NCBI RefSeq assembly: GCF_035084215.1
Contig: NC_090338.1
Coordinates: 15,872,001 to 15,936,000, forward strand
From: Heptranchias perlo
Taxonomy: Eukaryota
Direction: 5' to 3'
Length of the DNA stretch: 64,000 bases
The number at the start of each line of letters is the position of its first letter. Position 1 is the first letter of the stretch. The position numbers and the translations under genes are program-made. The notes under the pieces were generated by a model. It searched no databases. It was not told where the DNA came from and saw nothing but the letters and a program-made list of their open reading frames with translations. Below, one piece after another: positions 1 through 35,000 of this stretch.

Positions 1-281
1 ATCCTTGGGGTGACAATTCGTATCCTCGGGCACTGGAGGGAGGTCTCCCCATATGAAAAACCGGTCTGGCTCGAGTACTGGGTCGGATGTGACCCCAGCC
101 ATCTGGGCCAGCTCCCCTCATGAGTGTACAAGGCAATTTCATCCGCCTCGCGTAGGCCACTCCCATCGTAGGCTAGGGGCGCCGTTTTTCCGGAGCATCC
201 GAAGATGTGGTGGTCCTCGGTGTCGCCCCTTCTCGCGAGGCTCAGCCCAGGCAGGGCGAGCAGGATCACGCCTCCGAACAT
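1..281 (-). CDS. Candidate env N-terminus (MFGGVILLALPGLSLA-RRGDTEDHH...), open to the window edge
   Basis: Acceptor tctttatcttttacag| (exon starts 294), ATG at 281, signal-peptide-like start, 93 codons without a stop, located after pol. Confidence 0.55.
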   Translation of the reverse strand, partial: MFGGVILLALPGLSLARRGDTEDHHIFGCSGKTAPLAYDGSGLREADEIALYTHEGSWPRWLGSHPTQYSSQTGFSYGETSLQCPRIRIVTPR

Positions 282-522: not shown

Positions 523-3500
523 TCAAATTCTGTCAGGACTGCTGCAGGCTGCTCCCTGCGGCGTGGCTGTACTGAGCTTTACTTCCGGTCCCTCACAGCC
601 CACGACTGCTGGCTGAGGACCTTTGTCTTTCGACTTAACTTTAACGCGGGAGGTAGCCCTTTTAAACTGGGGAGCCGGCGACCATGCCTTCCTAGGCTGG
701 GGTGTCCGAGGGGACCTCCTAGAAAGTGCTGTTGGTGGGGCTACCCTGGCGAGCGGACCCTTGCTGTGGGTCGCAGTCCTCGCTGGCTGGGGGCTTTTCC
801 CCTGTGGCTCCTCCCTTCCCAAATCTGAGCTGGGGACAGGCAACCCTTCGCTGCCTGCTGCCGGTGGCTGAGAGTCTTCCTCTCCAGGTTCAAAACCTGG
901 GTCGGGGGCGGGGCTACCTGCCTCGGGCTCCTCCTCCTCTCCACCTGAGTCCCAGAAGAGAGGGGGAATGGTTTGGACAGGGGCCTGGGTGACTCCTCCC
1001 CTGACGCACGTGACTGTGCCTGCGTGTGCTGCCTGTGAGCTGTGACCTGCTGGGAGCTGGGGATTTCTAACCTCGGGTTGGATCCCAGCTGCCTGCTTTT
1101 TCGCCTCCGATCTAAACAGCTTACATTGGTTTATATGAAACCATTTCGTCCGCCGGGGCAATTTTACAGCATAAACCATGGGGCTGGCTTTATCTACTAT
1201 GCTATAGGGTCCCATGTACAGTGGCTCCAAACTCCCCACTCGGGCGTTGTATCTCACCATTACCTGGTCCCCTATCTCCCACTGATGACTTTTGTTAGGC
1301 TTGAGCAGCAGTCAGTTATTCCGATGCTGCTTCCCCATACTACCTGCTGCCTGTTCGTAAATCTGCTTCAGGCGCTCGAGGAGTGTTCGGGCGAATTTAT
1401 CTCGGTTTACCTCCTGAAGCCGCCCTTCAGTAAGACCTGGGGCTAGGACATGGGTGGGGGTTCTCATGACCCTACCGGTCATGAGCTCATGCGGGGAATA
1501 CCCCGTACTCTTTGACTGACTGGCCTGGATCCCCATGAGGACGAGAGGCAGGATCTCTGCCCATTTTTGGAGCGAGTCCGCTGTCTCCTTCCTCAGCCTT
1601 TCTTTGATGGTACGGTTCATGCGTTCCACAATCCCTGAGGACTGTGGATTGTGGGCTACATGCCACTTCCCCTGAATACCGAGCAGCATAAGTGTATTCT
1701 GCATGACCTGGATGGTGAAGTTGCTTCCCTGGTCGGACTCCACAAACTGGGGTAGCCCCCACCGCGAGAACACCTCCAGTACCAAGATCCTTGCAGTCCC
1801 TAATGCTGTGGCTTTTCTACAGGGGAAGGCCTCGACCCACTTGGAAAACACGTCCACCAGGACGAGGCAGTATTTGTAGCCTCCCTGGGCGGTGGGTAGG
1901 GGCCCGATGTAGTCGATCTGGATCGACTGCCATGGTCCCTCTACCCTCCTAACGTGTCCCATGGGCACCTTCCTTCTGCGGGGGTCGGGGTTATTTGCAG
2001 CGTACACAAGACAGCTAGCGCAGAACTCGCGGACATCTTCCCGGAGTCCTGGCCACCATCACGCCTGCTCCACCCGCTGCCAGGTGGCCTCAGGCCCGGG
2101 GTGTCCTGCTCCCGGCCCTTCATGGGCCAGTTGAAGGAACTCCCTCCGGTGATGCTGGGGTACTACCCACTGTCCTTCCCTGAACAGCATGCCCTCTCTT
2201 ATGGAGAGGGCTGCCCCGCCGTAAGGGCCTTCTATCCTCCTACCCTCGCTCACTGCGCTAGTGACGGTTTTCAGGACAGGGTCCTGGGCTTGGACTGTTT
2301 TAAGATCCGGGGCTAATGCTACCCCTAAGCTGCTCTGGATCCCACCCCTGCCTCTAACTGTCGCCACGGGCCCGGACCCATAGGGGTCCCAGAAAATGCC
2401 GGTGTGGGCACCCTCCTTGGCCAGCGTGTCGGCTTGCTGGTTGCCCTGGCTGCGGGGTTCTGTGGAGGAGTGGGCCTTCACTTTGTGGATGAAGACTTCA
2501 CCTTCCTCCCCCACGGCTGCCAGGATTTTCTCCAGCAGGGGTTTTACTGTTAAGGGCCTCCCGTCGGCGGAGGTATATCCGCGATGGGACCAGATTGCCA
2601 GGTATTCCGTGCACAAGTTGCAAGTGAACATACTGTCAGAGCAACTCGTGTATGGGGTGGGGAAGATTTCGGGGTGGGTAACCACGTACACCACCACGGA
2701 CATTTCAGCCTGCTGGGCGCTCATGGTGCTGGGGAGCTTGATCGCCAAGGCAATGTTAGCCGATGGGTCATAGACTCCACATCCCGTGAGACGTTCACCA
2801 GCGGATACCATGCTGGAACCGTCTACATAGATCTCACGGCCTGTGGGATGTATCCCGGCCCGTAGTCCAATGTTCGCCTCCCACACCCCTTCTATGGAAC
2901 ACTGATGGGCTGTTCCAGGATATACCATGTTAGCCGCGAGCTCTGGCTCGCAAAGGCCCCTCACCCTCAGATCCATCTGGGAAAGGAGTAGGGTCCAGCG
3001 TGCAATGCGGGCACTGCTGACTGTCCCATCTTTGATCCACCCATCCCGAAGCATCTGGGTGGGCGTGTGATGTGTGAGGAGGGTGATAGGAGAGGTGCCT
3101 GTGAAGATCGAGGATCTTTTCACAGCCCAGTACGTGGCCAAAAGGTGCCGCTCGCAAATTGAGTAGCTCTTTTCCACGTCAGTGAGTACTCTGGAGGAGT
3201 AGACCACGGGTCTTAGCCTGCCGTGCCGCTCCTGGAGCAGCACAGCACTGAGATTATCCCCGCTGGCCGCTACCTCCAGAAAGAACTCTCTCCCTCCATC
3301 TATCGCTCCCAGGGCTGGTGCGGTCTGCAGGTCCCTCTTGAGCTGGACAAATGCTGCCTGGCACCCCTCATCCCAAGACCACTCCACTCCCTTGCGTAGG
3401 AGTTGGAGCAGAGGGGCTGCCGTGGCTGCATAATCCTCAATAAAATCTCTGCAGTACCCCGTTAGCCCTAAGAAGGACCTCACACCCCTCACAGTACTGG

Positions 3501-4764
3501 GGACCGGTAGCTCTTGGACCGCTTCCCTCCTAGCCTTGTCTATGGCTCGTTCCCCTGCGCGGACGGTCAGGCCCAGGAATTTCACCTCCTGCTGGCCGAT
3601 CTGCGCTTTCCTAGGGTTCACTTTAAAACCTTTCCTCTGCAACAGCTCCAGCAATTCGGCCAGTAGCGGGCCATGCTCCCCGACTGAGTCGGTAAACAAG
3701 AGCAGGTCGTCTACATACTGCACCAATTGCCTGGGCTGGCTAAATTCCTTTAAACTACTCGCCATGCACTGGTGAAAGATGCTAGGGCTGTTATGAAAAC
3801 CTTGCGGCAAACAGTTCCAAGTATACTGTTGCCCCTTAAAAGTAAAAGCGAACTGATACTGGTCTTCCCTCCTTAAGGGGATTGACCAAAACCCATTCGA
3901 AATACCCAGCACCGTGAACGTAGTCGCAGATGCTGGAATGCTTCCGATGAGGTCGGCAACTGCTGCCACTGTGGGGGCACACGCGGGGATATTGCTGTTG
4001 AGCACCCGATAGTCCACCGTGGCTCTCCATGAATTGTCTGGTTTCTTGACCGGCCAAAGCGGAGAATTAACATGAGTGGCTATGGGCCTCAGCACTCCCT
4101 GCTGCACCAACGAGGATATGGCCATCTCCATATCGGGCTCTGCTTCTCTAGGAAAGTTATACTGCTTCTGGGGCCAGGTCATGGGGTCTCCGTCTACCCT
4201 GACCTCAAACCCGGTGACCCTCCCGCAGTCGTGTTTGTGCATGGCGAACGCAGCTGGGTGAGCCTGCACGAATGCTTTAAATTCCTCCGGGACACCCTCC
4301 ATCATGAGCCCGAGGTCGTATCCTCCTTTCGGCTTCACAGTACACAGGGTTCCCTTCCCTTCTTTTCCTGGGATAACGACCACGCCATTCTCCTCACCCG
4401 TGTCGGCTCCCCAAAGGCAATGGTTGCGGAGATCCACAAGGATACCGTGGCCCACGATGAAGTCGGCCCCTAGGATCCCCTTTCCTCCCTCCACTTCCCA
4501 CCTTGCCTGGAGTGGGCCCAGGCAGATTGAGAGCGGCTTGGAGAATGCTCCCGCCTGTTCCTTGCCGGTGAACCCCGATAGAACGTATGGAACTCCGCTA
4601 GACAGAGGTGAGGTGGTGGGATTAGCTGCGTGGATCACGGTGCATGATACCCCCGTATCCAGAAGATAAGTCCCTTTAACCTTCTCTACCTCCATCTGCA
4701 CGAGCGGTCTCTTCCATCCATCATACCGGAGAGCACACAGGTGGACAGGCTGCGCGGGCTCTAG
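523..4764 (-). pseudogene. pol: pol: protease (LLDTG), RT (LPQGFHNSP, YVDD), tether, RNase H, integrase (IDYIGPLP, SDQG, VERMN)
   Basis: ORFs 2059-4701, 1312-2007 and 523-1260 share one frame, separated by single TGA stops; first RT Asp mutated (FTVLG). Confidence 0.92.
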
Positions 4765-6595
4765 TCATTTCAGGGCGTCATCAGAGGGGGCTGAGGGAGC
4801 TACCACACCGGTAGTGGCTGCTATTTTTCCCTGGCTGGCCATAAAAGATTGCATGGCCTCAAAAAATGCCTCCATGGCAGCGGGGGCAATTCCTGTCTCT
4901 GCCTCCCCCGTCGCTGCCTTTTGGGCTGGGGCGGTGGGATTCTTTCCCTTGGTGTCCTTCCAGGGGTTTTTACAATCTTTGCGCCAGTGGCCGTCCTTCC
5001 CGCACCCATAGCAGTTTAACTTAGCCTGGGCGGGACGATTCCCTTCCTGGTGCCATTCCCTTTTATGCTGGGCCCCTGGTTTAACCTCGTGGACTTTCCC
5101 CTTGGGTTGGGGCATCTCGATACCCCTGATATTTTTAAATGCTATCATGAGCTGGCGGATCACCGTTTCCTCGGTGGTCTGGGGGCTACGGGGGTCAAAC
5201 GAGTTCGAATTTGGGGCAGGCGGTTTGCCATGAGACAGCGGAGCCAGTGGGCCGATTGGTCTCTGTTCAGGAATGCCCGCCCTAGCATTCCCGGGCATGC
5301 GCTCCGGTAGACTGGCCACAGCCTGTCTGTGAACACCTGTGGGGACTCCCCGGGGAGCTGTACCGTTTTTTCCACCCGGGCGAACGGACTCCCGTCATTG
5401 AGTCCCATGGCCTCCAATATCTCATCCCTTAAACCCTCGTAATCTTACTGCCCCCTTTTGTACTCATCTGATAAGGTTTGGAGGAGGTCACCACCCAGAG
5501 AAAACAGCAGCATTTTTGCTTGTTCTGCTTCATCGCGGTCATTAACGCACGCTGCCTGCTCTATCTCACGGAAGTGTAGAGAGGGGTCTCCCTTCACTGT
5601 AAGCTTAGGGATATGGCGAACCATGGCCCTGAGCTGTTGGGTGCCCTGCGGCACTACAAACTGGTTCTGGATGGCCCCTAGGTCCTCGCCATCGGCGGGC
5701 GGGCCGTACCTTCGTTGTCAGAGGGGGTACACTGGTCCCGGTCCTGGTCTATCTACCAGGGCTTGCTGGGTCTCCCCTAATGCTTCATCCTCCACCACCC
5801 CCCTTGCTGCCAGACCTCCTGAAAATTCGGGGCAATGGGTGGTGGCCGTGAAGCCTCTGGTTCCCTAACCAGTGTCGTTCTGGGAGCTGCCTGTGGGACT
5901 TCCCTGCTTGGGTTGCCGGTAAAATCCGATTGGCCCACCTTCGGGCTAAGGAGGCATACCATGCCCTTCGCCCTCGCTAAGGCCATGCCCAAGCTTTCTA
6001 TTTCTTGCCTACAGGGGCCATGATCTGCGTCTTCAAACCTCTGGGCGCAGGCCAGCTTATCTGTTGCCTTTACCTCGCCTACTTTCTCCTCCTGTTCTTT
6101 TAGTTCTTGCGTGAGGCTGTGGATCTTATGAATTAACCTAGCCTCACTGCCTCTCGCCTCTCTGACCTGGTATTCCAGGTGTTCCATTCTACCTCTAGCG
6201 CTACTTTTGAGCTCAGTGATCTGGTATTCCAGGCGCTCTACCTTTGCCTGGTGGTCCCTTGCCATCTGTGCCCTTTCTTGGCTTATTGCCTGGAGCGCTG
6301 CTACCCCTTTCTCTTCGGCTGCTGTCTTTTCCTGCAGCTCTCGGGTCAACTGCTTAATCTTGGCTGCTTGCACTGCTACAGCACGGTCTAGTACTAAGAC
6401 CTGCTTTTTAAAACACAAGAGCCAGACCGCCTTCTCAATACCCTTCTTATACTGTTTACTTGCTGTCCACTGGATGGCTGCATCTATGGGACGCTCGGCC
6501 TTTAACCATTTTTTCGTGATATTTACCTTGCCGCACACATCGGCAGACAACCTTTCCTCCATTGCGGATTCCTCCTCCGCACCACTGTCTGCCAT
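4765..6595 (-). pseudogene. gag: gag (frameshifted): coiled-coil N-terminus, capsid-like region, CYGCGKDGHWRKDC zinc knuckle
   Basis: ORF pieces 5777-6634, 5445-5654, 5160-5417, 4765-5319; likely ATG at 6595. Confidence 0.8.
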
Positions 6596-6615
6596 GTTAC
6601 ACACTTTCGCCTGAG

Positions 6616-6633
6616 CTCCTGCCTGACTCGTCA
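6616..6633 (-). promoter_or_regulatory. Primer-binding site, tRNA-Arg(ACG)-like
   Basis: Minus strand TGACGAGTCAGGCAGGAG, 4 nt inside the LTR; 15/18 match to TGGCGAGCCAGCCAGGAG, the complement of the vertebrate tRNA-Arg(ACG) 3' end as recalled. Confidence 0.7.
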
Positions 6634-6637
6634 TTTC

Positions 6638-7673
6638 TGTAAGGGGTTTTGTTTCCGGGGCTTATTGTAGGTCAGCCAGTTATGTTTTCCTGAGCTGCCC
6701 TGCCCACTGTGTGGTTTTGAATCGCTTTCCCCTTCCTCATTCTGAGCTCAGGACTTATCGAGCGGAAATAAGGACAGACGAACAGACCAGTGGATTGGTG
6801 CAAGGAAAACCAATGTTTATTAATAAGAAAACTAAAACTACAAGGTAAACAGTATTATACAGAAGATAAAAGGAATCGCTATGGATGCAATACAGTCTTA
6901 CACTTAACGGGGTGGAAGAAACGGACACATCGAGGGAAAATTCTAAAATCACAATTTTAGCAATACCCCTTTAACTCCCACCCTTACACCTAGCTAGGTT
7001 GTCTTGTGATGGCCAGAAAAAAAATAATGCTCACCGGTGAAGCAGATGAAAAGGCCTGGCCCCTGTGCCCTGCTGCTGCCGTCGACATGTGGTTGCGATG
7101 GATACTGGATGGCCTTCCTTCTTGGTTGCTAGCAGGCAAGCAGGACGCTGGGCCGAGGTGAAGAGAAAGAGGGGGAGAGGTTCTGGGTTGCCCCCAGTTA
7201 TACCCTCCAGGTAATGGGTTATTTTCGCGCCTCATTAGTTTGCTCCATTGTCCGATTTGGGCTGAAAACGTAAGACAAAAGGGGTCCCGATCTTGGCCCA
7301 TTTACATTAATGGCTGGTACCTGTACTGATCTGTTCCATAACTGCTTTCCATTGTTCCGAATGTTCCTTAATGGGTCTCCTTAGTCTTGGGATTATTCCT
7401 GCTCGAATTTTGATTGTGTAGGCCGGCAACGTTGATGGCTTGCCTCAGGGCGTGAATGCAACTGCATTGTTCAAAGAGCCCTGTCTGAAACACGAAGCCT
7501 GCCAAGCTGTCCGAGAATCCAATTTCAAATGCTGCAGGCCCTTGGCCATGTGTCTGACCGCAGCCATTTTGAGAGACTCTGGATTTTTTAAAACACAGTC
7601 ACACCAGGGTTTCTTTAATAACTCCAATAAATCTTCGGCGGGGGGGACATGTGAAATTTTGCGAATCCCTTCA
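6638..7673 (-). repeat. 5' LTR (TG...CA)
   Basis: Boundaries defined by homology with the solo LTR at 51383-52438; PBS abuts it. Confidence 0.9.
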
Positions 7674-7759
7674 GACTGCCCCTACTTTTGGTTCAGCTGC
7701 TCCAGTGAATAAGACACAGGAAAAATCAGAAGCTCCAATTGACCTAAGGATCTGCCTGA

Positions 7760-20000: not shown

Positions 20001-23000
20001 TACCTTTAAGGCACAAAAATCCAACAGGAAAAGTGGTCCAACTATGGCTAACAAGAGAAATTAAAGAGAATATTAAATCAAAGGAAGAGGCATATAAAGT
20101 TGCCAGAAAAAGCAGTAAATCTGAGGATTGGGAGCATTTTAGAATTCAGCAAAGGAGGATCAAGAAATTGATAAAGAAAGGGAAAATAGAATGAGAGTAA
20201 ACTAGTGAGAAACATAAAAGCGGACTGTAAAAGCTTCTATAGGTATGTAAAAAGGAAAAGACTGGCGAAGGCAAATGTGGGTCCCTTACAGACACAGACA
20301 GGAGAATTTATAATGGGGAATAAGGAAATGGCAGAGAAATTAAACAAATACTTTGGGCTCGATTTTTGGACCTCTGAGCCGGCAGGTTCGTGGCTGGGGA
20401 GGGCTCCGAAAATCGGGGATTCCCGGGGCGGGTCCGGAGCCCGGCTCCAAGCGTCCCACTTCCGGGTTCCCCAGTGATGCGCTGACATGGACGCGCAGCC
20501 CCCGCATGTGGGACTCCCGCCAGCAATTAAAGCCGGCGGGATGCCACTTAAACTAATTAAGTAGGTACTTCAGGTCATTTGCAGACCTGATTGATATGAT
20601 ATTTTAGGAGGGGTGGGATTTTCCAAACAACTGAGACTGTTTCCCGTACTGGGGGAAACACTCCCAGTTGAAATGGATGTGTTGCAGCCACCAGCCTGTG
20701 GCAGCTGCAAAGGTCCATTTGACAGGTGGGGAGGGGGGAGCCCTCACTCATTGCAGGAGGCCACTCTGACAAAATTTGGCCTCCTCCACCCTCCTTCTGA
20801 CAATCAAAGTCACCAACTTGCAACCTCAACCCCGGTGTACAAACACATTTACCTACCTTGCGGACCCCCTCAAACGTACATCATCCGGATGGGGGACGCC
20901 ATAGCTGCAGTCATGACCTCCTCGGAGGACGAACAGCATCACTGGTCACACCGTCCACCTCTGACACGTGGAGCTCCACAACACAGTGCTGTGACACATC
21001 CACCTGCACAGCAGGTGGGAGGGCAACCGCAGAGAGAGATGCGTCGCAGAAGGTACTACCCTCGCCACAGGGTCTACAGACCAAGGCTCAGCTTCCTAGA
21101 CCTCTCTGAGCAGTAGTGCACATGGAGGCTCAGAGTCACTCGACTTATACTCATGGACATCTGCAGCCTCCTTCATGCCGAGCTGCTCCCAGCTGGCTCG
21201 AGCACCATCTTCTTACCTGTCGCTGTCAAAGTCACCACTGCCCTCAACAACTTCTCCTCCACATCCTTCCAGGGTGCCACCGGGGACATCGCCGACGTCT
21301 CTCAGTCGTCTGCACAAAAGAGCCCTGAAAATACACCTACAACCACTCTGCAGTGACACAATGGGTGGCATCAGTTGCGAGTCTTCATACTGATCCTCAG
21401 GAAAGGGCATTATTGCACAAACCAGACACGATTTGCAAAGATGTGGCAGTAGTGGTGCCAATATAATATGTAATGTGAGTTGATCAGAAATCAAATATGA
21501 GTAAAAACCATGACAAACCCTCAAACACCCTTGTGCATTCCCTTCATGCTCATGAAACATTTGCCTTACGCTTCCTACTGCACATATGTGATGCATGACC
21601 TGTGGATGCAGCACAGGTAGTGGCAGGTTGAGTGAGGCTGACCATGAAAGAGATGCATCAGAGAGTGAGTATGAGACAGAGCCATGAGATTGTATGAGGA
21701 TTGGGTTGAGTGGTAGTGGTGGGATGAGTACTGGCGAGGTGAGTAACTGCAGGTAAGATGCGGATGAGCTTTGAGTGGGTTTGAGGGGTGATGTGATAGA
21801 GTAGTGTTCGCAGTGCAGAAGGAGATGTGGGGTGGGGGCGGTGATGTGGCAGATGGAGTGTAGGGGAGTGAGTAAGTGTACTCACTTTGGCTGACCTACT
21901 TAGGTCATTGAAGCGCCTCCTGCACTGTATGCAGGTGCGTGATATGTTGGTGGTGCTGGTGACCTCCTCTGCCACCTCGAGCCAAGCCTCCCTGGTGGCA
22001 GAGGCAGGCCACTTCCTCCCATCCACTGGGGAGAAGATCTCTGTCCTCCCCCTCCTCCTCACCCCATCCAGTAAGACCTGGAGTAAGGCATCATGAAACC
22101 TGAGAGCAGCCTTTCCCTTGGGCGCTCCATGCTGTAATTTTGCATATTTTCTGCCGCATCATTCAATGCAGGACTGCCCCTTTAAATAGGGCTTCTCCAG
22201 CTGACAACCTATGATGCGCTTGCGCAGTCCGCCCGCTGAGCAGCTTTCCAGCGTGAAACCTGGAAGCAAAGGTAAGTGCCTTCAATTAGTCTGCAATTGC
22301 CCACGCGCCCAGTTGACCCCCCGCTGCTAACCCGCCTCCCTCCTAATATCGGGCCCTTTGTGTCTGTCTTCATGGAAGAAGACACAAAAAAACTCCCAGA
22401 AATACTAGAGAACCAAGGGTCTGGCAAGAATGAGGAACTGAAGGAAATTAGTATTAGTAAAAAAATAGTCGTAGAGAAATTAATGGGACTGAAAGTCGAT
22501 AAATCCCAAAAACCGGATGATCGACATCCCAGGGTTTTGAAAGAGATGGCTATAGAGATAGTGGATGCTTTGGTTGTCATCTTCCAAAATTCTTTTGATT
22601 CTGGAACGGTTCCTGCAGATTGGAGGGTAGCAAATGTAACCCCACTATTTAAGAAAGGAAGGAGAGCGAAAACAGGGAACCACAGACCTGTTAGCCTGAC
22701 ATCTGCACTAGGGAAAATACTAGAATCTATTCTAAAGGATGTGATAACAGGACACTTAGAAAATAATAATAGGATTTGGCAGAGTCAACATGGATTTATG
22801 AAAAGGAAATCATGTTGAACAAACCTATTGGAATTCTTTGAGAATGGAACGATTAGAATAGATAAGGGAGAACCAGTGGATGTGGTGTATTTGGATTTTC
22901 AGAAAGTTTTTGATAAGGTCCCACACAGGAGGTTGGTGAACAAAGTTAGAGCACATGGAATTGGAGGTAATATACTGGCATGGATTGAGAATTGGTTAAT

Positions 23001-26000
23001 GGACAGAAAACAGAGAGTAGCCATAAACGGGTCTTTTTCAGGTCGGCAGACTGTGACTCATGGGGTACCGCAGGGATCGGTGCTTGGGCCCCAGCTATTC
23101 ACAATCTATAACAATGATTTGGATGAGGGGACCAAATGTAATATTTCCAAGTTTGCTGATGACACAAAACTGGGTGGGAATGTGAGTTGTGAGGAGGATG
23201 CAAAGAGGCTTCAAGGGGAGGCTAAGTGAATGGGCAAGAACATGGAAGATGGAATATCATGTGGACAAATGTGAAGTTATCCACATTTGTAGGAAAAACA
23301 GAAATGCAGAGTATTATTTAAATGGTAAGAGATTGGGAAATGTTGATGTTCAAAGGGACCTGGGTGTCCTTGTACATGAGTCACTGAAAGCTAACATGCA
23401 GGTGCAGCAAGCAATTAGGAAGGCAAATGGTATGTTGGCCTTTATTACAAGAGGATTTGAGTACAGAAGTAAAGATGTCTTACTACAATTATATAGGGCC
23501 TTGGTGAGACCGCACCTGGAGTATTGTGTACAATTTTGGTCTCCTTACCTAAGAAAGAATATACTTGCCATAGAGAGAATGCAACAAAGGTTCACTAGAC
23601 TGATTCCTGGGATGGCGGGATTGTCGTATGAGGAGAGATTGAGTAGACTAGGCCTGTATTCTCTAGAGTTTAGGAGAATGAGAGGTGATCTCATTGAAAC
23701 ATACAAAATTCTTACAGGGCTCGACAGGGTAGATGCAAGGAGGATGTTTCCCCTGGCTGGGGAACCGAGAACCAGGGGTCACATTCTCAGAATAAAGGGT
23801 AGGCCGTTTAGGACTGAGATGAGGAGAAATTTCTTCACTCAGAGGGTGGTAAATCTTTGGAATTCTCTACCCCAGACGGTTGTGGAGGCTCAGTCATTGA
23901 GTACATTCAAATCAGAGATCAATAGATTTCTAGATATTAAAGGTATTAAGGGATATGGGGATAGTACAGGAAAATGGCTTTGAGGTAGAAGATCAGCCAT
24001 GATTTTGTTGAATGGCGGAGCAGGCTCAAGGGGCTGGATGGCCTACTCCTGCTCTTATTTCTTATGTTCTTATGTTCTTAAGTGTGAGGGAATGCATTTG
24101 GAGAGGGCAAACAAAGAAACAGAATTCAAAATAAATGGGAAGATACTGGGAGGTGCAGAGGAATAGAGGGACTTTGGAGTGCATGTCCACAGATCCCTGA
24201 AGGTAGCAGGACAGGTACTTTTCTTTAGAATATAAGAGTAGGGAGGTTATGCTAGAACTGTATAAAACACTAGTTAGACCACAGCTTGAGTACTGCATAC
24301 AGTTCGGGTCACCACATTACAGGAAAGATGTGATTGAACGAGAGAGGGTGCAGAGGAGATTTACGAGGATGTTGCCAAGAATGGAGAATTTTAGCTATGA
24401 GGAAAGATGGGATAGGCTGGGGTTGTTTTCATTGGAACAGAGGAGTGAGGGGTGATTTAATTGAGGTGTACAAAATTATGAGGGGCCAAGGTAGAGTGAA
24501 TAGGAAGGACCTATTTCCCTTAGCAGAGGGCTCAGTGACCAGGGGGCATGGGTTTCAGATTATTAAGTAGAAGGATTAGAGGGGAGCTGAGGAGAAATGT
24601 TTTCACCCAGAAGGTGGTGGGGGTTTGGAACTCACTGCCTGAAAGGGTGGTAGAGGCAGAAATACTCAACTCATTTAAAAAGTACTTAGATGTGCACTTG
24701 AAGTGCTGTAACCTACAGGGCTACGGACCAAGTGCTGGAAAGTGGGATTAAGCTGGATAGCTCTTTCTCGGCCGGTATAGACATGATGGGCCAAATGGCC
24801 ACCTTCTAAGCCATAACTTTCTATGATTCTAGAACTGTGTGCTGTCCTCCAAGTGTGGTCTAACCAAGGTTCTATACAAGTTCAACATAACTTCTCTGCT
24901 TTTCAATTCTATCGATCTAGAAATGAACCCCAAATGCTTTGTTTGCTTTTTTAAGGCCTTTTAACCTGCTTCGCTATTTTTAGTGATTTGTGTATCTATA
25001 CCCCCGGATCCCTCTGCTCCTCTATCCCATTTAGACTCTTATTTTCCAATAAGTATGTGGCCTCCTTATTCCTCCTACCAAAATGCACCACCTCACTCTT
25101 ATGTGGATTGAAATTCATTTGCCATTTACACGCCCATTCTGCAAGTTTATTTATGTCTTCTTATATTTTGTCGCAGTCTTTCTCAGTATTAACTATACCT
25201 ACCAATTTAGTGTGATCCTCAAATTTTAAAATTGTACTTCCGATTCCCGAGTCCAAATCATTTCTGTAAACGGCGAACAGCACTGATCCCTGCAGAACAC
25301 CACTTCCCACCGTCCGCCAGTCTGAGTAAATGGGCGCTAAATTGGGCCGTGTAGCGCCCGTTGTTTCTGCGCTACACGGCCTCTCCGACATCCAAGATGG
25401 CGACTTGGATGCGCACGCACGTTTCCTGCGTGATGTGCGCCAGACGCCAACTTGATATAGGAGTTTGCGCAGGCGCAGATAAGAAACGCTGGAATCATGT
25501 AAAGTAGGGAGAAAATGGTTTCAATCAGTGTGCAACGCTGATTTAAAGTGAAAGACACCATTTTGGGACTTAACTCAATGCACAATCTTAACCCCAACCA
25601 TCTGAACGTGTCTTAGAATGTCTGGAGGACACCCCACCAGTGCAGGATTTACAGGTTAGTGGCGGGATTATTGCCTCTGGCTGCTGTGCATTTGCGAATG
25701 TTTTTGTGGGAGAAGTTTGGAGAGCTGTTCTGCATATGGCAGTTGATGCTAGCTCAATTGTGAAGCATTTTAAAGCAGAGATTGATGGATTTCTGTGAAC
25801 CAAGGGTATTAAGGGATATTGACTAAGGCTGGTATATGGAGTTAGGTCACAGGTCAACAATGATCTTCTTGAATGGCAGAACAAGCTTGAGAGGCTGAAT
25901 GCCACTGCCACTTGCTGCCTCCTGATAAGCGCCACCTTCTCCTGCAAGAAAGCGGGAGGTGTGCCTGGGTGATGTGCCTATCATGGTTGAATAGCTGCCA

Positions 26001-29000
26001 GAGTGCGCAGCTTGCAACAGTGATAATGTGTGACGGTGAGAGGAAGCATCTGATTGGAAGATTCGAGCACTGATTGAAAGAGTTTGATGGTATGTGGGTG
26101 ATGGGAGTGTAGTGCGTGGAGCAATGGATGTGGCTAGTGGGGCATTGGTAGGAGATGGCACTTGAGAGTTGACTTCACTCAGCTTGATCATTCATGTCAA
26201 AGCATTGAACTTCTTCCTGCACTGCATTCATGTTCGTGATGCTATGCAGCTGGCATGGACTTCGCCCCCTACTGCCTCCCACTGCCTTTTGAGCATATAA
26301 CTAGAGGGCCACTTGCCCCCTCCCCTGGGCAGATGTAGGGTGCCCCTCCTTCTGTCGACTTCTTGCACCAAGACTTCTCGTGCATCATCAGCGAACCGTG
26401 GTGGACACACTCTCACAAGTCTGGTACCAACTCAAACTGGCAGATTGGTGAAGTCCGGCATGCAGATTGGAGGATGTGGGATTTAGTGGTACACAAGCTT
26501 TATTCAATGTTTTAACATAACTCAACAGTTTGTAAGCATAGGGATGGGACCTGCATCTGTGATTTATGTGTGTGATGTCTGATCTCCGTTCAGACTCTGT
26601 GCAGACAGAAGACTGTTATTTGCAGCAAATAACAAGTACCAGCAACCTTTAAGAGCTTTCTAAGAAACAGCCTCCCTTTAAGAGATTGAGCTCCCTCTGG
26701 TGGTGGAAAGTGCAGATTGCATTGATTCCATGTGCAAGGCCTGGAACGGAACGTTGATTGCAGGCAAGTGCTCTGGTGGGTCCAAATTTGCATCATGCAT
26801 GCGCAGGGGTCATTGGGCACGGGGTACGAGCGCATCGCGCTGCTTGCATCCAAAAACGACCCCTATCGAATGTTTTCCCCAATGTCTTTAACCACTGCTC
26901 TTTGTTTTCTGTTTTGCAGCCAGCTTGCTATCCATTCTGCTACTTGTCCCCTGATCCACATGCTGTGACCTTAGACATGAGACTACTCTGTGGTAACTTA
27001 TCGAAGGCCTTTTGAAAATCCAAGTATATTACATCTACTACATTACCCTTGTCTACTCTTTCTGCTCCTTCTTCAAAGAATTCAATAAGGTTGGTCAAGC
27101 ATGACCTTTCCTTTTGAAATCCATGTTAACAATACTTTATTATTTTTTCGGTTTCTAGATGTTTTTCTATTACATCTTTGAGTAAAGGTGACACCATTAT
27201 CGTTCCGACCACCAACATTAAGCTAAAAGGTCTATATTTCCCTGGACTTGTTCTATCTCCCTTTTTAAATCTAGGAATAACATTAGCTGTCCCATACATA
27301 TATAGTATATGTAAATTAGCTCATCTGTGGACAGATCCCAGAGCAGATCATGGGAAGGGTAAAAAAAAGTGAAGGAAATTCGGGCGGATAGGTTTTGGGG
27401 TGGAAAACCAAAGGAAACAGTTTTTTTCCCATTTCGCTGTCAAAATAAATTACACTGGGAGTACGGAATTGCTGAATTTACTCAGAGTCAGTGAACTCTG
27501 GTTGGGAGGTCCCCTTTAGGTACAAATCTGTTCACATGTGCAGTCTTCAGTAAGCAGATACAAAAGAGACATATGCTGGAATTGGGAAAAGCAGAGACAA
27601 TGCCACCCTAGTGCCAAACCTAGCAACCACTTTATGTGAGTGTGTGGACACGCAGTATGCAGATATCTTGTGTTGGCAGCATGCTCGATTGTACAATGTT
27701 TTTGTACATTTGGAAAGTGGGTGAACAGTTGTCAGAGAGTTGGGCATTTTCCCACCTTGATGCTCCATCAAGCTTGCAGTGAAATGCTGATAGCATGAAT
27801 TGGAAAGTAAGATTGTAAAAGAAGGCAAAGTGTGAGCACACTTATCTTAGCTACCCTTGGGAGATCAGCAAATGTCTTCCTCATCTAAGCCTAGGACCAC
27901 TAATGGTGTGTAAGATGGAGGAGAGAAGGGAGCAGAGGAGGCAGAGGCTGCCTTGATTTTGGACAAAAATGTCCATGAACTCTTTGCATTTGTTATCAAA
28001 GATCACAATGGAGGCTCTGGGGCCGAACATACAAACATACAAACATATGAAATTGACGGGCAGGAAATGACCAGCTGGCCAATCAAGCCTGCCCCAGACC
28101 ATGGTGGCTGGATCACCATGGCGAAATACTTCTTCCCTCCCCCGACCTCCCTCCCTCACACCCACCCCCACAGCCATGTAAACTCCTGGGAGAGGCAAAA
28201 ACAGAAAAAAACCAGGGTCAATATAGAATCATAGAATCATAGAAGTTTACAACATGGAAACAGGCCCTTCGGCCCAACATGTCCATGTCGCCCAGTTTAT
28301 ACCACTAAGCTAGTCACAGTTGCCTGCACTTGGCCCATATCCCTCTATACCCATCTTACCCATGTAACTGTCCAAATGCTTTTTAAAAGACAAAATTGTA
28401 CCCGCCTCTACTACTGCCTCTGGCAGCTCGTTCCAGACACTCACCACCCTTTGAGTGAAAAAATTGCCCCTCTGGACCCTTTTGTATCTCTCCCCTCGCA
28501 CCTTAAATCTATGCCCCCTCGCTATAGACTCCCCTACCTTTGGGAAAAGATTTTGACTATCTACCTTATCTACGCCCCTCATTATTTTAGAGACTTCTAT
28601 AAGATCACTCCTAAACCTCCTACTCTCCAGGGAAAAAAGTCTCAGTCTATCCAACCTCTCCGTATAAGTCAAACCATCATGTCCCGGTAGCATCCTAGTA
28701 AATCTTTTCTGCACTCTTTCTAGTTTAATAATATCCTTTCTATAATAGGGTGACCAGAACTGTAGACAATGTTCCCAGTGTGGCCTTACTAATGTCTTGT
28801 ACAACTTCAACAAGACATCCCAACTCCTGCATTCAATGTTCTGACCAATGAAACCAAGCATGCCGAATGCCTTCTTCACCACCCTATCCACCTGTGACTC
28901 CACTTTCAAGGAGCTATGAACCTGTACTCCTAGATCTCTTTGTTCTCTAACTCTCCCCAACGCCCTACCATTAACGGAGTAGGTCCTGGCCCGATTCGAT

Positions 29001-32000
29001 CTACCAAAATGCATCACCTCACATTTATCTAAATTAAAATCAATCTGCCATTCATCGGCCCATTGGCCCAATTTATCAAGATCCCGTTGCAATCCTAGAT
29101 AACCTTCTTCACTGTCCACAATTTCACCAATCTTGGTGTCATCTGCAAAATACTAACCATGCCTCCTAAATTCTCATCCAAATCATTAATATAAATAACA
29201 AATAACAGCGGACCCAGCACCGATCCCTGAGGCACACCACTGGTCACAGGCCTCCAATTTGAAAAACAACCCTCCACAACCACCCTCTGTCTTCTGTCAT
29301 CAATCCAATTTTGTATCCAATTGGCTACCTCACCTTGGATCCCGTGAGATCTAACCTTATGTAACAACCTACCATGTGGTACCTTGTCAAAGGCTTTGCT
29401 AAAGTCCATGTAGACCACATCTACTGCACAGCCCTCATCTTTTTGTTGGTTACCCCTTCAAAAAACTCAATCAAATTTGTGAGACATGATTTTCCTTTCA
29501 CAAAACCATGCTGACTGCTCCTAATCAGTCCCTGCCTCTCCAAATGCCTGTAGATCCTGTCTCTCAGAATACCCTCTGACAACTTACCCACTACAGATGT
29601 CAGGCTCACCGGTCTGTAGTTCCCAGGCTTTTCCCTGCCGCCCTTCTTAAACAAAGGCACAACATTTGCGACCCTCCAATCTTCAGGCACCTCACCTGTA
29701 GCTGTCGATGATTCAAATATCTCTGCTAGGGGACCCGCAATTTCCTCCCTAACCTCCCATAACGTCCTGGGATACATTTCATCAGGTCCCGGAGATTTAT
29801 CTACCTTGATGCGCGTTAAGACTTCCAGCACCTCCCTCTCTGTAATATGTACACTCCTCAAGACATCACTATTTATTTCCCCAAGTTCCCTAACATCCAT
29901 GCCTTTCTCAACCGTAAATACCGATGTGAAATATTCATTTAGGATCTCACCCATCTCTTGTGGTTCCGCACATAGATGACCTTGTTGATCCTTAAGAGGC
30001 CCTACTCTCTCCCTAGTTACTCTTTTGCCCTTTATGTATTTGTCGAAGCTCTTTGGATTCACCTTTGCCTTATCTGCCAAAGCAATCTCATGTCCCCTTT
30101 TTGCCCTCCTGATTTCTCTCTTAACTCTACTCCGGCAATCTCTATACTCTTCAAGGGATCCACTTGATCCCAGCTGCCTATGCATGTCATATGCCTCCTT
30201 CTTCTTTCTGACTAGAGCCTCAATCTCCCGAGTCATCCAAGGTTCCCTACTTCTACCAGCCTTGCCCTTCACTTTATAAGGAATGTGCTTACCCTGAACC
30301 CTGGTTAACACACTTTTGAAGGCCTCCCACTTACCAGACGTCCCTTTGCCTGCCATCAGACTCTCCCAATCAACTTCTGAAAGTTCCTGTCTAATACCAT
30401 CAAAATTGGCCTTTCCCCAATTTAGAATTTTAACTTTTGGGCCAGACCTATCATTCTCCATAGCTATCTTAAAACTAATTTCCCAAGAGGAGGTCAAGTT
30501 TTGCCCCTCTCTAGTCGGGCCATCCACATACTGAATGAGAAATTCCTCCTGAATACACTCAACAAATTTCTCTCCATCCAAGCCCCTAATGCTATGGCTG
30601 TCCCAGTCAATGTTGGGAAAGTTAAAGTACCCTACTATTACCACCCTATTTTTCTTGCAGCTGTCTGTAATCTCCTTACATATTTGCTCCTCAATTTCTC
30701 ATTGACTATTTGGGGGTCTGTAGTACAATCCTATCAAAGTGATCTCTCCCTTCTTATTTTTCAGTTCTACCCATATAGACTCAGTGGGCGAACCCTCGGA
30801 TATATCCCCTCTCACTACTGCCGTGATGTTCTCCCTAATCAAGAACGCAACTCCCCCTCCTCTCTTACCTCCTGCTCTATCTTTCCTATAGCATCTGTAC
30901 CCTGGAACATTGAGCTGCCAGTCCTGCCCCTCCCTTAGCCATGTTTCAGTAATAGCTATAACATCCCAGTCCCATGTACCCATCCATGCCCTGAGTTCAT
31001 CTACCTTCCCCATCAGACTTCTTGCATTGAAATAAATGCAGTTTAATCTAGACTTCCCTTGGTCTTTGCCCTGCTTTCTCAGACCATCTGTCCGGTCATG
31101 TTTTGTACACTCTCCCTTACTGCCTTTTGTTTCTGTCACCACTTTACTTCCCACTGACTTCCTGCATCGGTTCCCATCCCCCTGCCACTTTAGTTTAAAC
31201 CCTCCCTAACAGCACTAGCAAAAACTCCCCCTAGGACATTGGTTCCAGTCCTGCCCAGATGCAGACCATCCAATTTGTACTGGTTCCACCTCCCCCAGAA
31301 CCGGTTCCAATGTCCCTGGAATTTGAATCCCTCCCTCTGGCACCATCTCTCAAGCCACGTATTCATCCTAGCTATCCTGTCATTCCTACTCTGACTAGCC
31401 CGTGGCACTGGTAGCAATCCTGAGATTACTACCTTTGAGGTCCTACTTTTTAGTTTAACTCCTAAGTCCCTAAATTCAGCTTGTAGGACCTCATCCCGTT
31501 TTTTACCTATATCGTTGGTACCTATATGCACCACGACAACTGGCTGTTCACCCTCCCCCTCCAGAATGCCCTGCAGCCGCTCCGAGACATCCCTGACCCT
31601 TGCACCAGGGAGGCAACATACCATCCTGGAGTCTCGGTTGCGTCCGCAGAAAAGTCTGTCTATTCCCCTTACAATCGAGTCCCCTATCACTATAGCTCGG
31701 CCACTCTTTTTCCTGCCCTCCTGTGCAGCAGAGCCAGCCACGGTGCCATGAACCTGGCCGCTGCCACCTTCCCCTGGTGAGCCATCTCCCCCAACAGTAT
31801 CCAAAACGGTATACCTGTTTGAGAGGGGGATGGCCACAGGGGACCCCTGCACTACCTGCCTGCACCTCTTACTCTGCCTGGTGGTCACCCATTCACTTCC
31901 TGCCTGTACTCCCTTTACCTGGGAAAAAAAAGTCTGTAAAATTCCTCTTCTACCCCCTCAAGCAATCGAAACCAGTCCAGAAGATCACATGGACCAAGTG

Positions 32001-35000
32001 TTATCTATAAAAACACTAACCTTCTAAATGATACATTCTCTGCCCCAGTCAGGAACCAGTCCAGCTGCCTCTTGAAGGCAGAGAGTCAGCACTCACCACA
32101 ACACCAGCTCGCAATATATTCCAGAGGCTCACAATTCTCTGGGAAAAGAAGAACCACCTAACATTCAGTCTATTCCTGCTCTTCCATAGTTTAAACTCAT
32201 GTGCCCTGGTCCTCCCCGACCTGTTAAACAGGAATAATCTATCAATAGGGACACTATCCAGCCCTTTACTTATTTTATAGACCTCTATCAGGTCACCTCT
32301 GAGTCTACACTGCTCTAAAGTAAATAGACAAAAGTCCCTGAGCCTATCTGAGTAGCTGAGGTTCTTTAACCTTGGAATCATTCTCGTAGGTCTCCTCTCA
32401 ATCTTTTCCAAGGTCACTAAATCACCCACCATGTGGGGGGACCAAAATTGGGCACAGTTCTCTATGTGCAGTCTGACCAGTGACCTGTATAGTGTCAAAA
32501 TGGTGTCCTTTGATTTATAATGAATGGGTCGATTAATACAACCCAATTCCTTATTAGCTTTAGCTACAGTTTCTCTACATTGGTCATGAACCTTTAGTGA
32601 TCTGTGTACAATAACACCAAGATCTTTTTGTCGCTCAATCTCTTTCAGTATTGTTTGTTCCCTGAAAATGATACATGTATTCAGTGTTGACCCTACCAAC
32701 ATGCATGACATTACATTTATCTCAATCAAACAACATTTGCCAATGTGTGGCCCATTCCCTCAGCACATCTAACCCTTTTTAAATTTGATTGCATTCCTCT
32801 ACCATCTTAACCCTTGCACAGATTTTGGTGTCATCTGCAAACTTACTTACCATACTCCCCACACCACTGTCCAGGTCATTAATAAAGACCGTGAAGAGTA
32901 GCAGGCCTAGGACCGATCCCTGGGGGACAACACTAGTAACATGTCTCCAAGCTGAACCATATCTGTTAACTACAACCTTTTGGTTGCGGGATTGGAGCCC
33001 ATTCCTAATCCAGCTCTTCAAATTTCTACTGGTACCACAAGATTCTATCTTGTGAATTAACAGGCTTTTGGAAAGTCCAGGTAGGCAATGTCGACCGGAT
33101 CACCCTCATCCACTACCCTAGTGACTTCCTCAAAAAACTTCTTCAAATTTGTTAGGCACGGCCTATTTTTTCAGAAGCCATGTTGAGAATTTCTAATGGC
33201 CCCTTTCCTTTCCCAGTGATCATAAAGGGCATCTTTTATGATCCCTTGTAGCATCTTCCTAATAATTGATGTCAGGCTGATAGGCCTGTAGTTCACTGAC
33301 TCTGATTTGCCCCCTTTTTTAAAAATAGGAACTACATGAGCTAGCTTTCAGTCTAAGGGAACTACCCTTACTCTATTGAACTATTAAAGATACGGGCAAG
33401 GGACTCACAGAGCACCTGTCCCAACTCTTTAATCTCCTTGGATGAATATTATCCGGACGTGGAGCCCTATCAATTTTGAGCTTTCCTGACCTATCCAAGA
33501 GGACGTTACTATCTATTTTAATATTAATAACGCTATTCAATACCAAGCACCCCTTATCTGGAACATAAGCATCGTCGACAGGAGTATAGACTGATGCTAA
33601 ATAGTCATTTAGCAACTCTCCCATAACCCGAGAATCAGTTTGAATCTGCCCTACAGTATCCTTTAGTGGCCTGATGTGGTCCTTTATGGTCTTCTGACGA
33701 CTGACAATACTGAAAAAGGTTTTCCTGTTACTGCCACAATTACCGCACCTTCTTCTTTTCCAGAGATCTCTTGGCTAATCTTATGGCTGTTTTTGTCTTC
33801 CTTAATTGCATGCAATATTTTTTCCTGTCCTCCTGCGAGTTAAATGCAGTAAGTCTGTAGAATGCCGTCTGTTTCGATCGAATTTGCCTCTGTACATTTC
33901 TCGTCAACCAAAATGGTTTTGTTTTACCATTTGCCCTTCTTTTAACCATTGGGACATCTATGGCTTTATTCTGTTTGAGAATGGTTTTAAATTGAACCCA
34001 TTTCTCCTCAGTACTTGATTGCCTATCTAGGAGAGTTGCCCAGTTAACTTTTGCCAGTTCTTCAGCCATTTTTTTAAAGTCGGTCCTCTTGAAATCTGGG
34101 ACCAGCATTAGATTGTCTGCAACCTTGGATTGGCCAATAAGATTAAACTTAACGATATTATGATCAGAGCTGGCCAGGTGTTTCCCACACAGAGGTTTGA
34201 TACAGCACCAGGGTCGCTGCTAAACACCTGATTGAGAATTTGTTTATCCCTAGTTGCCTCACCAACATGCTGTGTAAGGAAACAATCAGTTATGGGGCTC
34301 GATATTGCCAGGGCTGCGGGTTCGCGGCGGGGGGACGATTGGGTAACCCGCCCGGCGAAATCAGTCTGCCCCGCACGCGATCGCAGCCTAATTGGATCCA
34401 CTTACCTGTTGTCCTGGGTTCCCCGCTGCTGAGCTGCGCGTCGGGCAGACTGCGCATGCGCAGTAAGGTCTGTCAGCGGGAGGAGCTCTATTTAAAGGGG
34501 CAATCCTCCACTGACAGATGCTGCAACAAATAGGAAAAATTACAGCATGGAGCAGCCCAGGGGGAAGACTGCTCCCAGTGTAATGATGCCTCACTCCAGG
34601 TATTATTGGATGGGGTGAGGAGGAGGGGGAGGATAGAGATCTCCCCCCCGGCGGGCGGGAGGAAGCGGCCTGCCTCTGCCACCAGGAAGGCCTGGCTCGA
34701 GGTGGCAGAGGAGGTCACCTGCACCACCAACATATCGCCCACCTGCATACAGTGCAGGAGGCGTTGCAATGCCCTAAGTAGGTCAGCCAAAGTGAGTACA
34801 CTTACTCATTCCCCTACACTCCGTCTGCCACATCACCGCCCCCACCGCACATCTCCTTCTGCACTGCCAACACTACTCTGTCACATCACCCCTCACACCC
34901 ACTGAAACCTCATCCTCATCTTACCTGCACCTACTCACCTCGCCAGTACTCATCCCGCCACTACCACTCAACCCAATCCTCATACAATCTCATGGCTCTA

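What the first reader, a model, noticed from the sequence alone, without database searches (positions are those of the whole stretch)
523..7673. Retrovirus-like element with tether plus second RNase H, not an ordinary Gypsy
Seen: RT has NSPLWPVKKPD, LPQGFHNSP and QYVDDLL. It is followed by a degenerate RNase H (FFLEVAASG..YSICERHLLA) and a second RNase H (IYVDGS..SAQQAE..SDS..KVKAH..GNQQADTLAK). Integrase has IDYIGPLP and gag has one CCHC knuckle. Established: tether plus acquired RNase H marks vertebrate retroviruses and their lokiretrovirus sister group, and foamy virus Gag lacks zinc knuckles. Inference: a lokiretrovirus-like endogenous element in a cartilaginous fish.
Basis: partly seen in the sequence, partly recalled or inferred. 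Interest (0 to 1): 0.72.

Follow-up and report, generated by a model that had tools for sequence, protein, structure and literature searches.

The report
Shark retrovirus with F-type envelope
This is a broken copy of an abundant endogenous retrovirus, likely of a shark; its polymerase groups with ordinary retroviruses (likely the snakehead-fish retrovirus group) and not with lokiretroviruses, yet its envelope is predicted to fold like the fusion protein of measles-type viruses, which suggests that this kind of envelope is widespread among early-branching retroviruses.

Summary
It is not a lokiretrovirus: RT sits inside canonical retroviruses with coelacanth and amphibian ERVs, and a forced window-plus-loki clade is rejected (p-AU 0.00017). 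By hand count RT is closest to snakehead retrovirus (68/132; loki 49/132), so it most likely belongs to the SnRV clade, known from elephant shark. Unusual: the family's Env is predicted to have the paramyxo/pneumovirus F fold, whereas the published elephant-shark relative carries a gamma-type Env; gag and pol are separated by a conserved UGA-CUAG, a likely readthrough site. This copy is dead; at least 150 env-bearing copies exist. The scan noted the same kind of element in four other genomes. Separately, two degraded lokiretrovirus-type RT scraps lie elsewhere in this genome, although the published screen found none in six cartilaginous fish.

The parts
7674..7677 (.). 4-bp target-site duplication (second copy at L011 2519-2522, beside the 3' LTR)
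6638..7673 (-). 5' LTR, 1036 bp, TG...CA; partner 3' LTR of 1035 bp lies outside the window at G000:C14:15868523-15869557 (L011 2523-3557), preceded by a short purine run
   Evidence: 39 substitutions in 1033 columns, K2P 0.039
6616..6633 (-). primer-binding site for tRNA-Arg(ACG), 15 of 18 matching in this copy, 4 nt after the LTR end
4765..6595 (-). gag, broken (frame changes near 5800 and 5200, in-frame stops in the middle piece); long heptad-rich N-terminal part; one CCHC knuckle at 4972-5013
4761..4767 (-). in-frame UGA-CUAG between gag and pro-pol; likely readthrough site
   Evidence: TGA in 30 of 30 loci, TGACTAG in 28 of 30
4405..4716 (-). protease (DTG at 4651-4659)
   Evidence: RVP E 0.13, below cut-off; motif and position
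3355..4170 (-). reverse transcriptase; a catalytic motif-A position (3904-3906) is substituted in this copy
2977..3291 (-). tether (degenerate Ty3-type RNase H)
2407..2835 (-). second RNase H with its acidic residues
523..2163 (-). integrase: HHCC, core, SH3/GPY domain, then a low-complexity tail of about 200 aa; in-frame stops at 2059-2061 and 1312-1314
1..281 (-). start of env (signal-like hydrophobic start); the gene goes on outside the window to L011 3968, with an RQRR cleavage site, one C-terminal membrane anchor, three in-frame stops and two frame changes in this copy

Best explanation
The element is a complete but dead provirus (LTR-gag-pro-pol-env-LTR) of a high-copy endogenous retrovirus family whose RT falls among canonical retroviruses, likely in the snakehead-retrovirus (SnRV, clade Huo) group, in a likely shark host, with an envelope predicted to have the paramyxo/pneumovirus F fold. 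How the parent virus likely worked: tRNA-Arg(ACG) primed reverse transcription (PBS match shown, priming inferred); the second RNase H did the cutting while the first domain served as tether (domain order and lost residues shown, roles inferred from retroviruses); Gag-Pol was made by reading through a UGA in the CUAG context (conservation shown, readthrough inferred); integrase made 4-bp duplications (shown for this copy); Env was cut at RQRR and refolded like an F protein to fuse membranes (fold predicted for another copy of the family, function inferred). This copy has stops or frame changes in gag, integrase and env and a substituted RT catalytic position, so it cannot replicate by itself.
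For: Anatomy. RT trees: window in a 17-row clade 97/99 (80 rows) and a 14-row clade 98/99 (50 rows) with coelacanth, amphibian and same-genome ERVs; loki-type rows outside canonical retroviruses; p-AU 0.00017. Hand count over RT positions 1-132 on rows printed in the Wang and Han supplement: SnRV 68, feline foamy virus 52, WDSV about 51, Loki-Lca 49. P0022, a member of the window's clade, matches my hand translation of elephant-shark CmiERV lineage I at 107 of 139 RT positions, and Han 2015 groups that lineage with SnRV. Tether and RNase H also score highest with that clade (bits: tether 84-125 against loki 43; RNase H 45-87 against 44). Env: Foldseek best hit hPIV3 F, E 2.5e-11, and every listed PDB row is a paramyxo/pneumovirus F; VIA-align ranks 1-15 of 48,161 chains are all F proteins or foamy Env (Z 10.9, rmsd 18.7, 346 aligned; foamy Z 8.8), first unrelated row Z 5.4; no CX6CC or immunosuppressive-domain motif.
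Against: SnRV, foamy, Odin and class II sequences were not in my trees; the SnRV assignment rests on hand counts and one proxy. Only one full loki reference (P0021, labelled by likeness to the printed Loki-Aro row) and one fragment were present. The base of the canonical clade is unresolved. The Env model is middling (mean pLDDT 60, pTM 0.45, TM-scores up to about 0.5 with large rmsd), is of another copy, and Pfam gives no F0 match. No stable structure downstream of the stop in 125 nt (z +1.3). SnRV itself has UAG at the junction, a 136-aa Env tail and accessory ORFs; this family has UGA, a tail of about 28 aa and no sense ORF of 70 aa between env and the LTR. Host is inferred from homologue names only.
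Confidence: 0.85

Rival explanations
1. It is a lokiretrovirus.
For: Tether plus RNase H; F-like Env, a published loki trait; heptad-rich Gag N-terminus.
Against: Forced clade rejected, p-AU 0.00017. All 24 printed loki RT rows have PFG where the window has LPQG. RT 38% to P0021 against 44-53% to six named-clade proteins. Loki-type RT from the same genome is 48% to P0021 and 28% to the window. The printed Loki-Xtr Env has no long N-terminal extension; this one has about 220 aa.
Confidence: 0.03
2. It is a canonical retrovirus of an unnamed early branch, near SnRV only by shared ancestral likeness.
For: SnRV was not in the tree; relations among the early canonical branches are drawn open; junction codon, Env tail and accessory genes differ from SnRV.
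Against: 68/132 identity to SnRV, 16 or more above the other references counted; P0022 proxy for CmiERV-I inside the clade; clade hosts (coelacanth, amphibians) match those reported for SnRV-like ERVs (PMC4977317).
Confidence: 0.1
3. It is a recombinant: an SnRV-type gag-pol that took its env recently from a lokiretrovirus or a mononegavirus.
For: CmiERV-I, in the same pol clade, has a gamma-type env (hand translation), so env swaps happen; loki-type scraps exist in this genome.
Against: Homologous env pieces lie behind the pol of other, distant families in this genome (24% and 29% identity, E 1e-17 and 4e-17; a similar piece) and in sharks, a skate and frogs, so the acquisition is old. A direct Env tree with loki Env could not be made.
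Confidence: 0.15
4. It is a foamy-like ERV or an env-bearing Ty3/Gypsy element.
For: Foamy Env is a structural hit (Z 8.8); F-type env occurs in errantiviruses.
Against: Zinc knuckle, in-frame gag-pol junction, 52/132 to FFV against 68/132 to SnRV; Gypsy rows are excluded at 100/99; dual RNase H.
Confidence: 0.02

Closest known systems
CmiERV lineage I of the elephant shark (Han 2015, PMC4422223)
   Same: Same RT clade by proxy (P0022, 107/139 by hand); by my hand reading of its printed sequence also one knuckle, a heptad-rich Gag start and an in-frame UGA before the protease.
   Different: Its Env carries the LQNRxALD and CX6CC motifs of gamma-type Env and its primer site differs (hand reading); this family has a predicted F-type Env and a tRNA-Arg(ACG) site.
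Snakehead retrovirus (SnRV) and the SnRV clade / clade Huo (PMC6001957, PMC12193657, PMC1224870)
   Same: Highest RT identity counted (68/132); similar RNase H motifs; one knuckle; gag/pol readthrough stop; provirus about 11.2 kb.
   Different: UGA-CUAG instead of UAG-GGC; short Env tail; no accessory ORFs seen; SnRV Env fold not tested.
Lokiretroviruses (Wang and Han 2021, PMC7947760)
   Same: Dual RNase H; F-like Env with signal, RXXR site, heptad helix and one C-terminal anchor.
   Different: RT outside the clade; LPQG instead of PFG; Env has an extra N-terminal region of about 220 aa.
Foamy virus Env and paramyxo/pneumovirus F, class Ib fusogens (PMC11468914)
   Same: Predicted core fold over Env residues about 245-650.
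   Different: Extra region sits at the N-terminus, not between the subunits as in foamy Env; 8-16% identity; prediction only.

Membership tests
Lokiretroviruses | RT inside the loki clade, sister to canonical retroviruses | tested here: not met
   p-AU 0.00017 with two loki-type rows
Lokiretroviruses | PFG in RT motif B (24 of 24 printed rows) | tested here: not met
Lokiretroviruses | tether plus second RNase H | tested here: met
Lokiretroviruses | Env related to Mononegavirales F | tested here: met
   fold searches; no Pfam F0 hit
Lokiretroviruses | integrase grouping with CGIN1 | not tested
   P0021 integrase is cut short; the supplement held ends before Dataset S7
SnRV clade (clade Huo) | RT monophyly with SnRV | tested here: inconclusive
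   SnRV not obtainable as a tool sequence; hand count 68/132 and proxy P0022 for CmiERV-I favour it
SnRV clade (clade Huo) | inside canonical retroviruses but outside class I (gamma/epsilon) and ERV-L/S clades | tested here: met
   group labels are mine, from motifs, Pfam and host names
SnRV clade (clade Huo) | single NC knuckle, as in SnRV | tested here: met
   one knuckle in each of the 20 of 29 other loci with an intact motif
SnRV clade (clade Huo) | in-frame stop between gag and pol | tested here: met
   30 of 30 loci; SnRV trait
Foamy viruses | Gag without zinc knuckle | tested here: not met
Foamy viruses | RT in the spuma clade | tested here: inconclusive
   no foamy row in my trees; hand count 52/132 to FFV
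Ty3/Gypsy | RT in Metaviridae; single active RNase H | tested here: not met
Odin retrotransposons | dual RNase H but no env | tested here: not met
   env present; definition
ERV3/ERV4 as tabulated in PMC4299795 | 5-bp TSD, no knuckle, no GPY/F motif | tested here: not met
   4-bp TSD, one knuckle, GPY motif in the integrase tail
Gamma-type Env | CX6CC and immunosuppressive domain in TM | tested here: not met

The most novel reading that the evidence does not exclude
The F-type (class Ib) fusogen is the ancestral retroviral envelope: it is kept in lokiretroviruses, foamy viruses, this SnRV-clade group of sharks, rays and frogs, and probably the walleye epsilonretroviruses (BFVD hits E 7e-11 and 1e-7), and was replaced by gamma-type Env several times, once even inside this pol clade in cartilaginous fish (CmiERV-I). 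That would choose among the four env-origin scenarios that Wang and Han left open.
Probability: 0.4. Interest if true: 0.75.

Novelty: new variant of a known kind. Interest (0 to 1): 0.48.

Why it matters
SnRV-like and class III ERVs are already known to be common in cartilaginous fish, so the element as such is ordinary. What adds something: (1) an F-type Env on a canonical, non-foamy retrovirus, which I did not find described in five literature searches; F-like Env therefore does not diagnose lokiretroviruses; (2) two different Env classes on one pol clade in cartilaginous fish, a test case for the direction of env replacement; (3) a UGA-CUAG junction, the context that a 2026 review lists for alphaviruses and not among its retroviral examples in the passages I saw; (4) separate loki-type fossils in the same genome, which would extend that group to cartilaginous fish.

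Tried and rejected
IMG/VR scan for relatives: none. Three protein searches did not return SnRV, foamy or Odin proteins (the last stopped at 2000 aa). Pfam and PDB sequence searches of Env gave no fusion-protein hit; one of 21 homologues scanned touched Baculo_F at E 0.001. The protein atlas gave no answer. The N-terminal Env region modelled alone was unusable (pLDDT 36), so the Ig-like reading (Pfam Ig_3 E 0.33-0.66; 3 of 42 members, best 0.0085) stays open. No stem-loop signal in the 125 nt after the stop; longer-range pairing not tested. Sequencing runs: no holder on record as RNA; two runs laid cover all 30 bins with related contigs but say nothing on expression. My first reading of the top hits (coelacanth, turtle, frog) as lokiretroviruses was dropped once the printed loki rows were seen. 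My recollection that SnRV has one open gag-pol frame was contradicted. A third tree with four more same-genome loci was not computed. L076 was interrupted by LINE sequence and showed no env; L079 was fetched but not examined. Hart 1996 (SnRV genome) and Wang, Chen and Cui 2023 (cartilaginous-fish foamy virus) were not held.
Full report
Observation. Read with X at its two stops, the 1413-codon frame 4764-526 carries RVT_1, RT_RNaseH, RNase_H, Integrase_H2C2, rve and a weak SH3 match.

Boundaries. The window lies at G000:C14:15872001 in a 3.25-Gb genome. The LTR search scored 40 of 1343 candidates, all 91-100% identical; one lies on the same strand about 10 kb downstream. The provirus is 11,151 bp. 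With the two rates used in the cited papers (2.2e-9 and 2.2e-10 per site per year) the insertion is about 9 or about 90 million years old; the rate is not known. Four bases after the LTR there is a primer site that matches the 3' end of tRNA-Arg(ACG) at 15 of 18: the exact 18-mer occurs 141 times in the genome against 0 for the reversed control, 2 of the 4 places inspected follow this family's LTR end, and the two places found with a T-loop pattern are tRNA-Arg(ACG) genes.

Env. Between integrase and the 3' LTR lies an env gene that starts at window 281. In this copy it has three in-frame stops and two frame changes. Its C-terminal piece matched all 150 scored candidates (of 2576) at 93-100%, and 15 of these 150 lie in open frames of 790 aa or more, so at least 150 env-bearing copies exist. 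A natural open frame from another copy (780 aa from the first Met) has one RQRR site, one strongly hydrophobic anchor near 732-752, and no CX6CC or immunosuppressive motif. Fifty relatives were found among 1.84 billion representatives; of 10 looked up, 8 are named: skate, sawshark (twice), smooth-hound, bamboo shark and three frogs, the closest being the cartilaginous fish (60-68%). That is the basis for the host inference. A model built with 39 of the 50 hits plus two cluster members has mean pLDDT 60, mostly above 70 over much of residues 240-640 and below 50 over most of 1-233. Foldseek against PDB gives hPIV3 F first (E 2.5e-11, TM 0.29/0.48, rmsd 24) and only paramyxo/pneumovirus F among the listed rows. 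VIA-align ranks F proteins and foamy Env in places 1-15 of 48,161, with the first unrelated chain at Z 5.4. BFVD adds baculovirus F, lispivirus glycoproteins, two walleye-virus Envs and feline foamy Env; SnRV Env is not among the named rows. The large rmsd values fit a monomer model with mixed conformations but limit the claim to the fold class. The first 220 residues remain unexplained.

Phylogeny. I chose 76 of 248 stored RT-bearing proteins to span the motif classes (one more was dropped for coverage), added three same-genome loci, and built an 80-row tree and a 50-row tree with a loki-type fragment. P0021 serves as the lokiretrovirus reference because it nearly repeats the printed Loki-Aro row. 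Both trees reproduce the published order: Gypsy, then loki, then canonical retroviruses (100/99 and 100/98). The window sits with coelacanth, amphibian and same-genome ERVs (97/99; 98/99), apart from the YIDD (ERV-L/S-like) and class I groups. Holding the window's group together with the two loki rows costs 53 log-likelihood units, p-AU 0.00017. The trees lack SnRV, foamy, Odin and class II rows, and the base of the canonical clade is open. To bridge this I counted identities by hand over RT positions 1-132 against rows printed in the Wang and Han supplement: SnRV 68, feline foamy 52, WDSV about 51, Loki-Lca 49; these counts come from no tool. All 24 printed loki rows have PFG where the window has LPQG. 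P0022, inside the window's clade and 47% identical to it, matches my hand translation of elephant-shark CmiERV lineage I at 107 of 139 positions; Han 2015 groups that lineage with SnRV. Tether and RNase H give the same ranking by pairwise score, though narrowly at the low end for RNase H.

Gag-pol junction. The gag frame ends in UGA in frame with the protease. The stop is present in 30 of 30 fetched loci (of 40 matches; the window's own copy is one of them) and is followed by CUAG in 28, so it is a family trait. UGA-CUA is the readthrough context of several alphaviruses; SnRV uses UAG-GGC and some aquatic retroviruses use other UGA contexts (PMC13517186). Readthrough is inferred, and no local stem-loop was detected.

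State of this copy. Gag has two frame changes and internal stops, integrase two stops, env five breaks, and an RT catalytic position is substituted, unlike in the 25 of 29 other loci where the motif could be read. It is a fossil.

Env type within the clade. Two further families in this genome carry homologous env pieces (three of four loci examined; the fourth was interrupted by LINE DNA). In contrast, the printed CmiERV lineage I env reads by hand as gamma-type, with the immunosuppressive motif and CX6CC. One pol clade thus carries two Env classes in cartilaginous fish; the direction of replacement is not shown.

Comparison with print. SnRV-related ERVs in cartilaginous fish are known (PMC4422223; clade Huo in PMC6001957; clade III is the majority of their RT loci in PMC11089739). 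F-like Env is published for lokiretroviruses (PMC7947760), foamy viruses (PMC11468914) and errantiviruses. I found no paper describing it for SnRV-clade ERVs, and none reporting loki in cartilaginous fish; subscription papers and Repbase were not searchable. The scan's own notes describe the same kind of element in four other genomes; my reading was fixed before I saw them and they are not independent support.

What I saw of each paper. PMC7947760: main text parts 1-3 of 4, supplement parts 8, 67, 68 and search passages (the file is cut before the integrase alignments). PMC9040795: part 1 of 4, no supplements. PMC4422223: part 1 of 2 and supplement 1 part 1 of 3. Passages only: PMC6001957, PMC11468914, PMC13709493, 10.1101/2023.10.26.564294, PMC4977317, PMC13517186, PMC4299795, PMC1224870, PMC12583693, PMC9967133, PMC11089739, PMC12193657. 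Unread supplements of PMC9040795, PMC6001957 and PMC12583693 could hold shark loki records or F-type retroviral Envs and so bear on the novelty claims.

Verdict. A real, complete, dead provirus of a known retroviral group, misfiled as a lokiretrovirus, with a predicted F-type envelope and a likely UGA readthrough as its distinguishing traits. New variant of a known kind; interest 0.48. The boldest reading not excluded, an ancestral F-type retroviral envelope replaced repeatedly by gamma-type Env, has probability 0.4 and would merit 0.75.

Noticed in passing
L055/L069 (G000:C6:98784700-98785296, minus) and L070 (G000:C5:87752211-87752612, minus): Two degraded RT scraps of lokiretrovirus type: L055 is 48% identical to P0021 and 28% to the window, groups with P0021 at 100/99 and has the PFG and SRW motifs; L070 is 52% to L055 and 40-42% to P0021, with a frame change. 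No other retroviral domain was found in about 18 kb around L055 with six queries. Wang and Han report 0 of 6 cartilaginous-fish genomes; PMC11089739 notes that loki was not in its probe set.
   Followed up: partly
L056-L060, L075 (e.g. G000:C26:24125827 onward): A second high-copy family, sister to the window's in the RT tree (95/95 and 97/96), also has env pieces homologous to the F-type Env (24%, E 1e-17).
   Followed up: partly
L071-L074, L077, L078: A third, more decayed family with RT motifs like P0022/P0114 and env pieces homologous to the F-type Env (29%, E 4e-17 for L078; similar piece in L077); not placed in a tree.
   Followed up: partly
BFVD rows 8 and 29: Predicted Env of walleye epidermal hyperplasia virus 1 and walleye dermal sarcoma virus match the F-type model (E 6.8e-11, 1.2e-7; low TM-scores); PMC9967133 only says that these Envs lack gamma-type hallmarks.
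   Followed up: no
window 6634-6637: Four bases separate the LTR-terminal CA from the primer site, also in other copies; two is the usual retroviral spacing (recalled).
   Followed up: no
window 6000-6400, minus: Gag has a heptad-rich stretch of over 100 aa before the capsid region; a similar stretch is seen by eye in CmiERV-I Gag.
   Followed up: no
window 523-1120, minus: Integrase ends in an open, proline/serine/glutamate-rich tail of about 200 aa with no Pfam match.
   Followed up: no
P0256, P0257, P0260, P0283: Env pieces of this family sit inside annotated host gene models (Niban-like, zinc finger, cadherin-related, F-box), probably annotation fusions or exonised insertions.
   Followed up: no
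window 22200-24000, 28300-30700, 32049-32759, 39430-40041, 59173-59910; 49293-49988: The rest of the window holds several LINE-type RT/endonuclease pieces and a Harbinger-like transposase piece (labels recalled from the translations, not tested).
   Followed up: no
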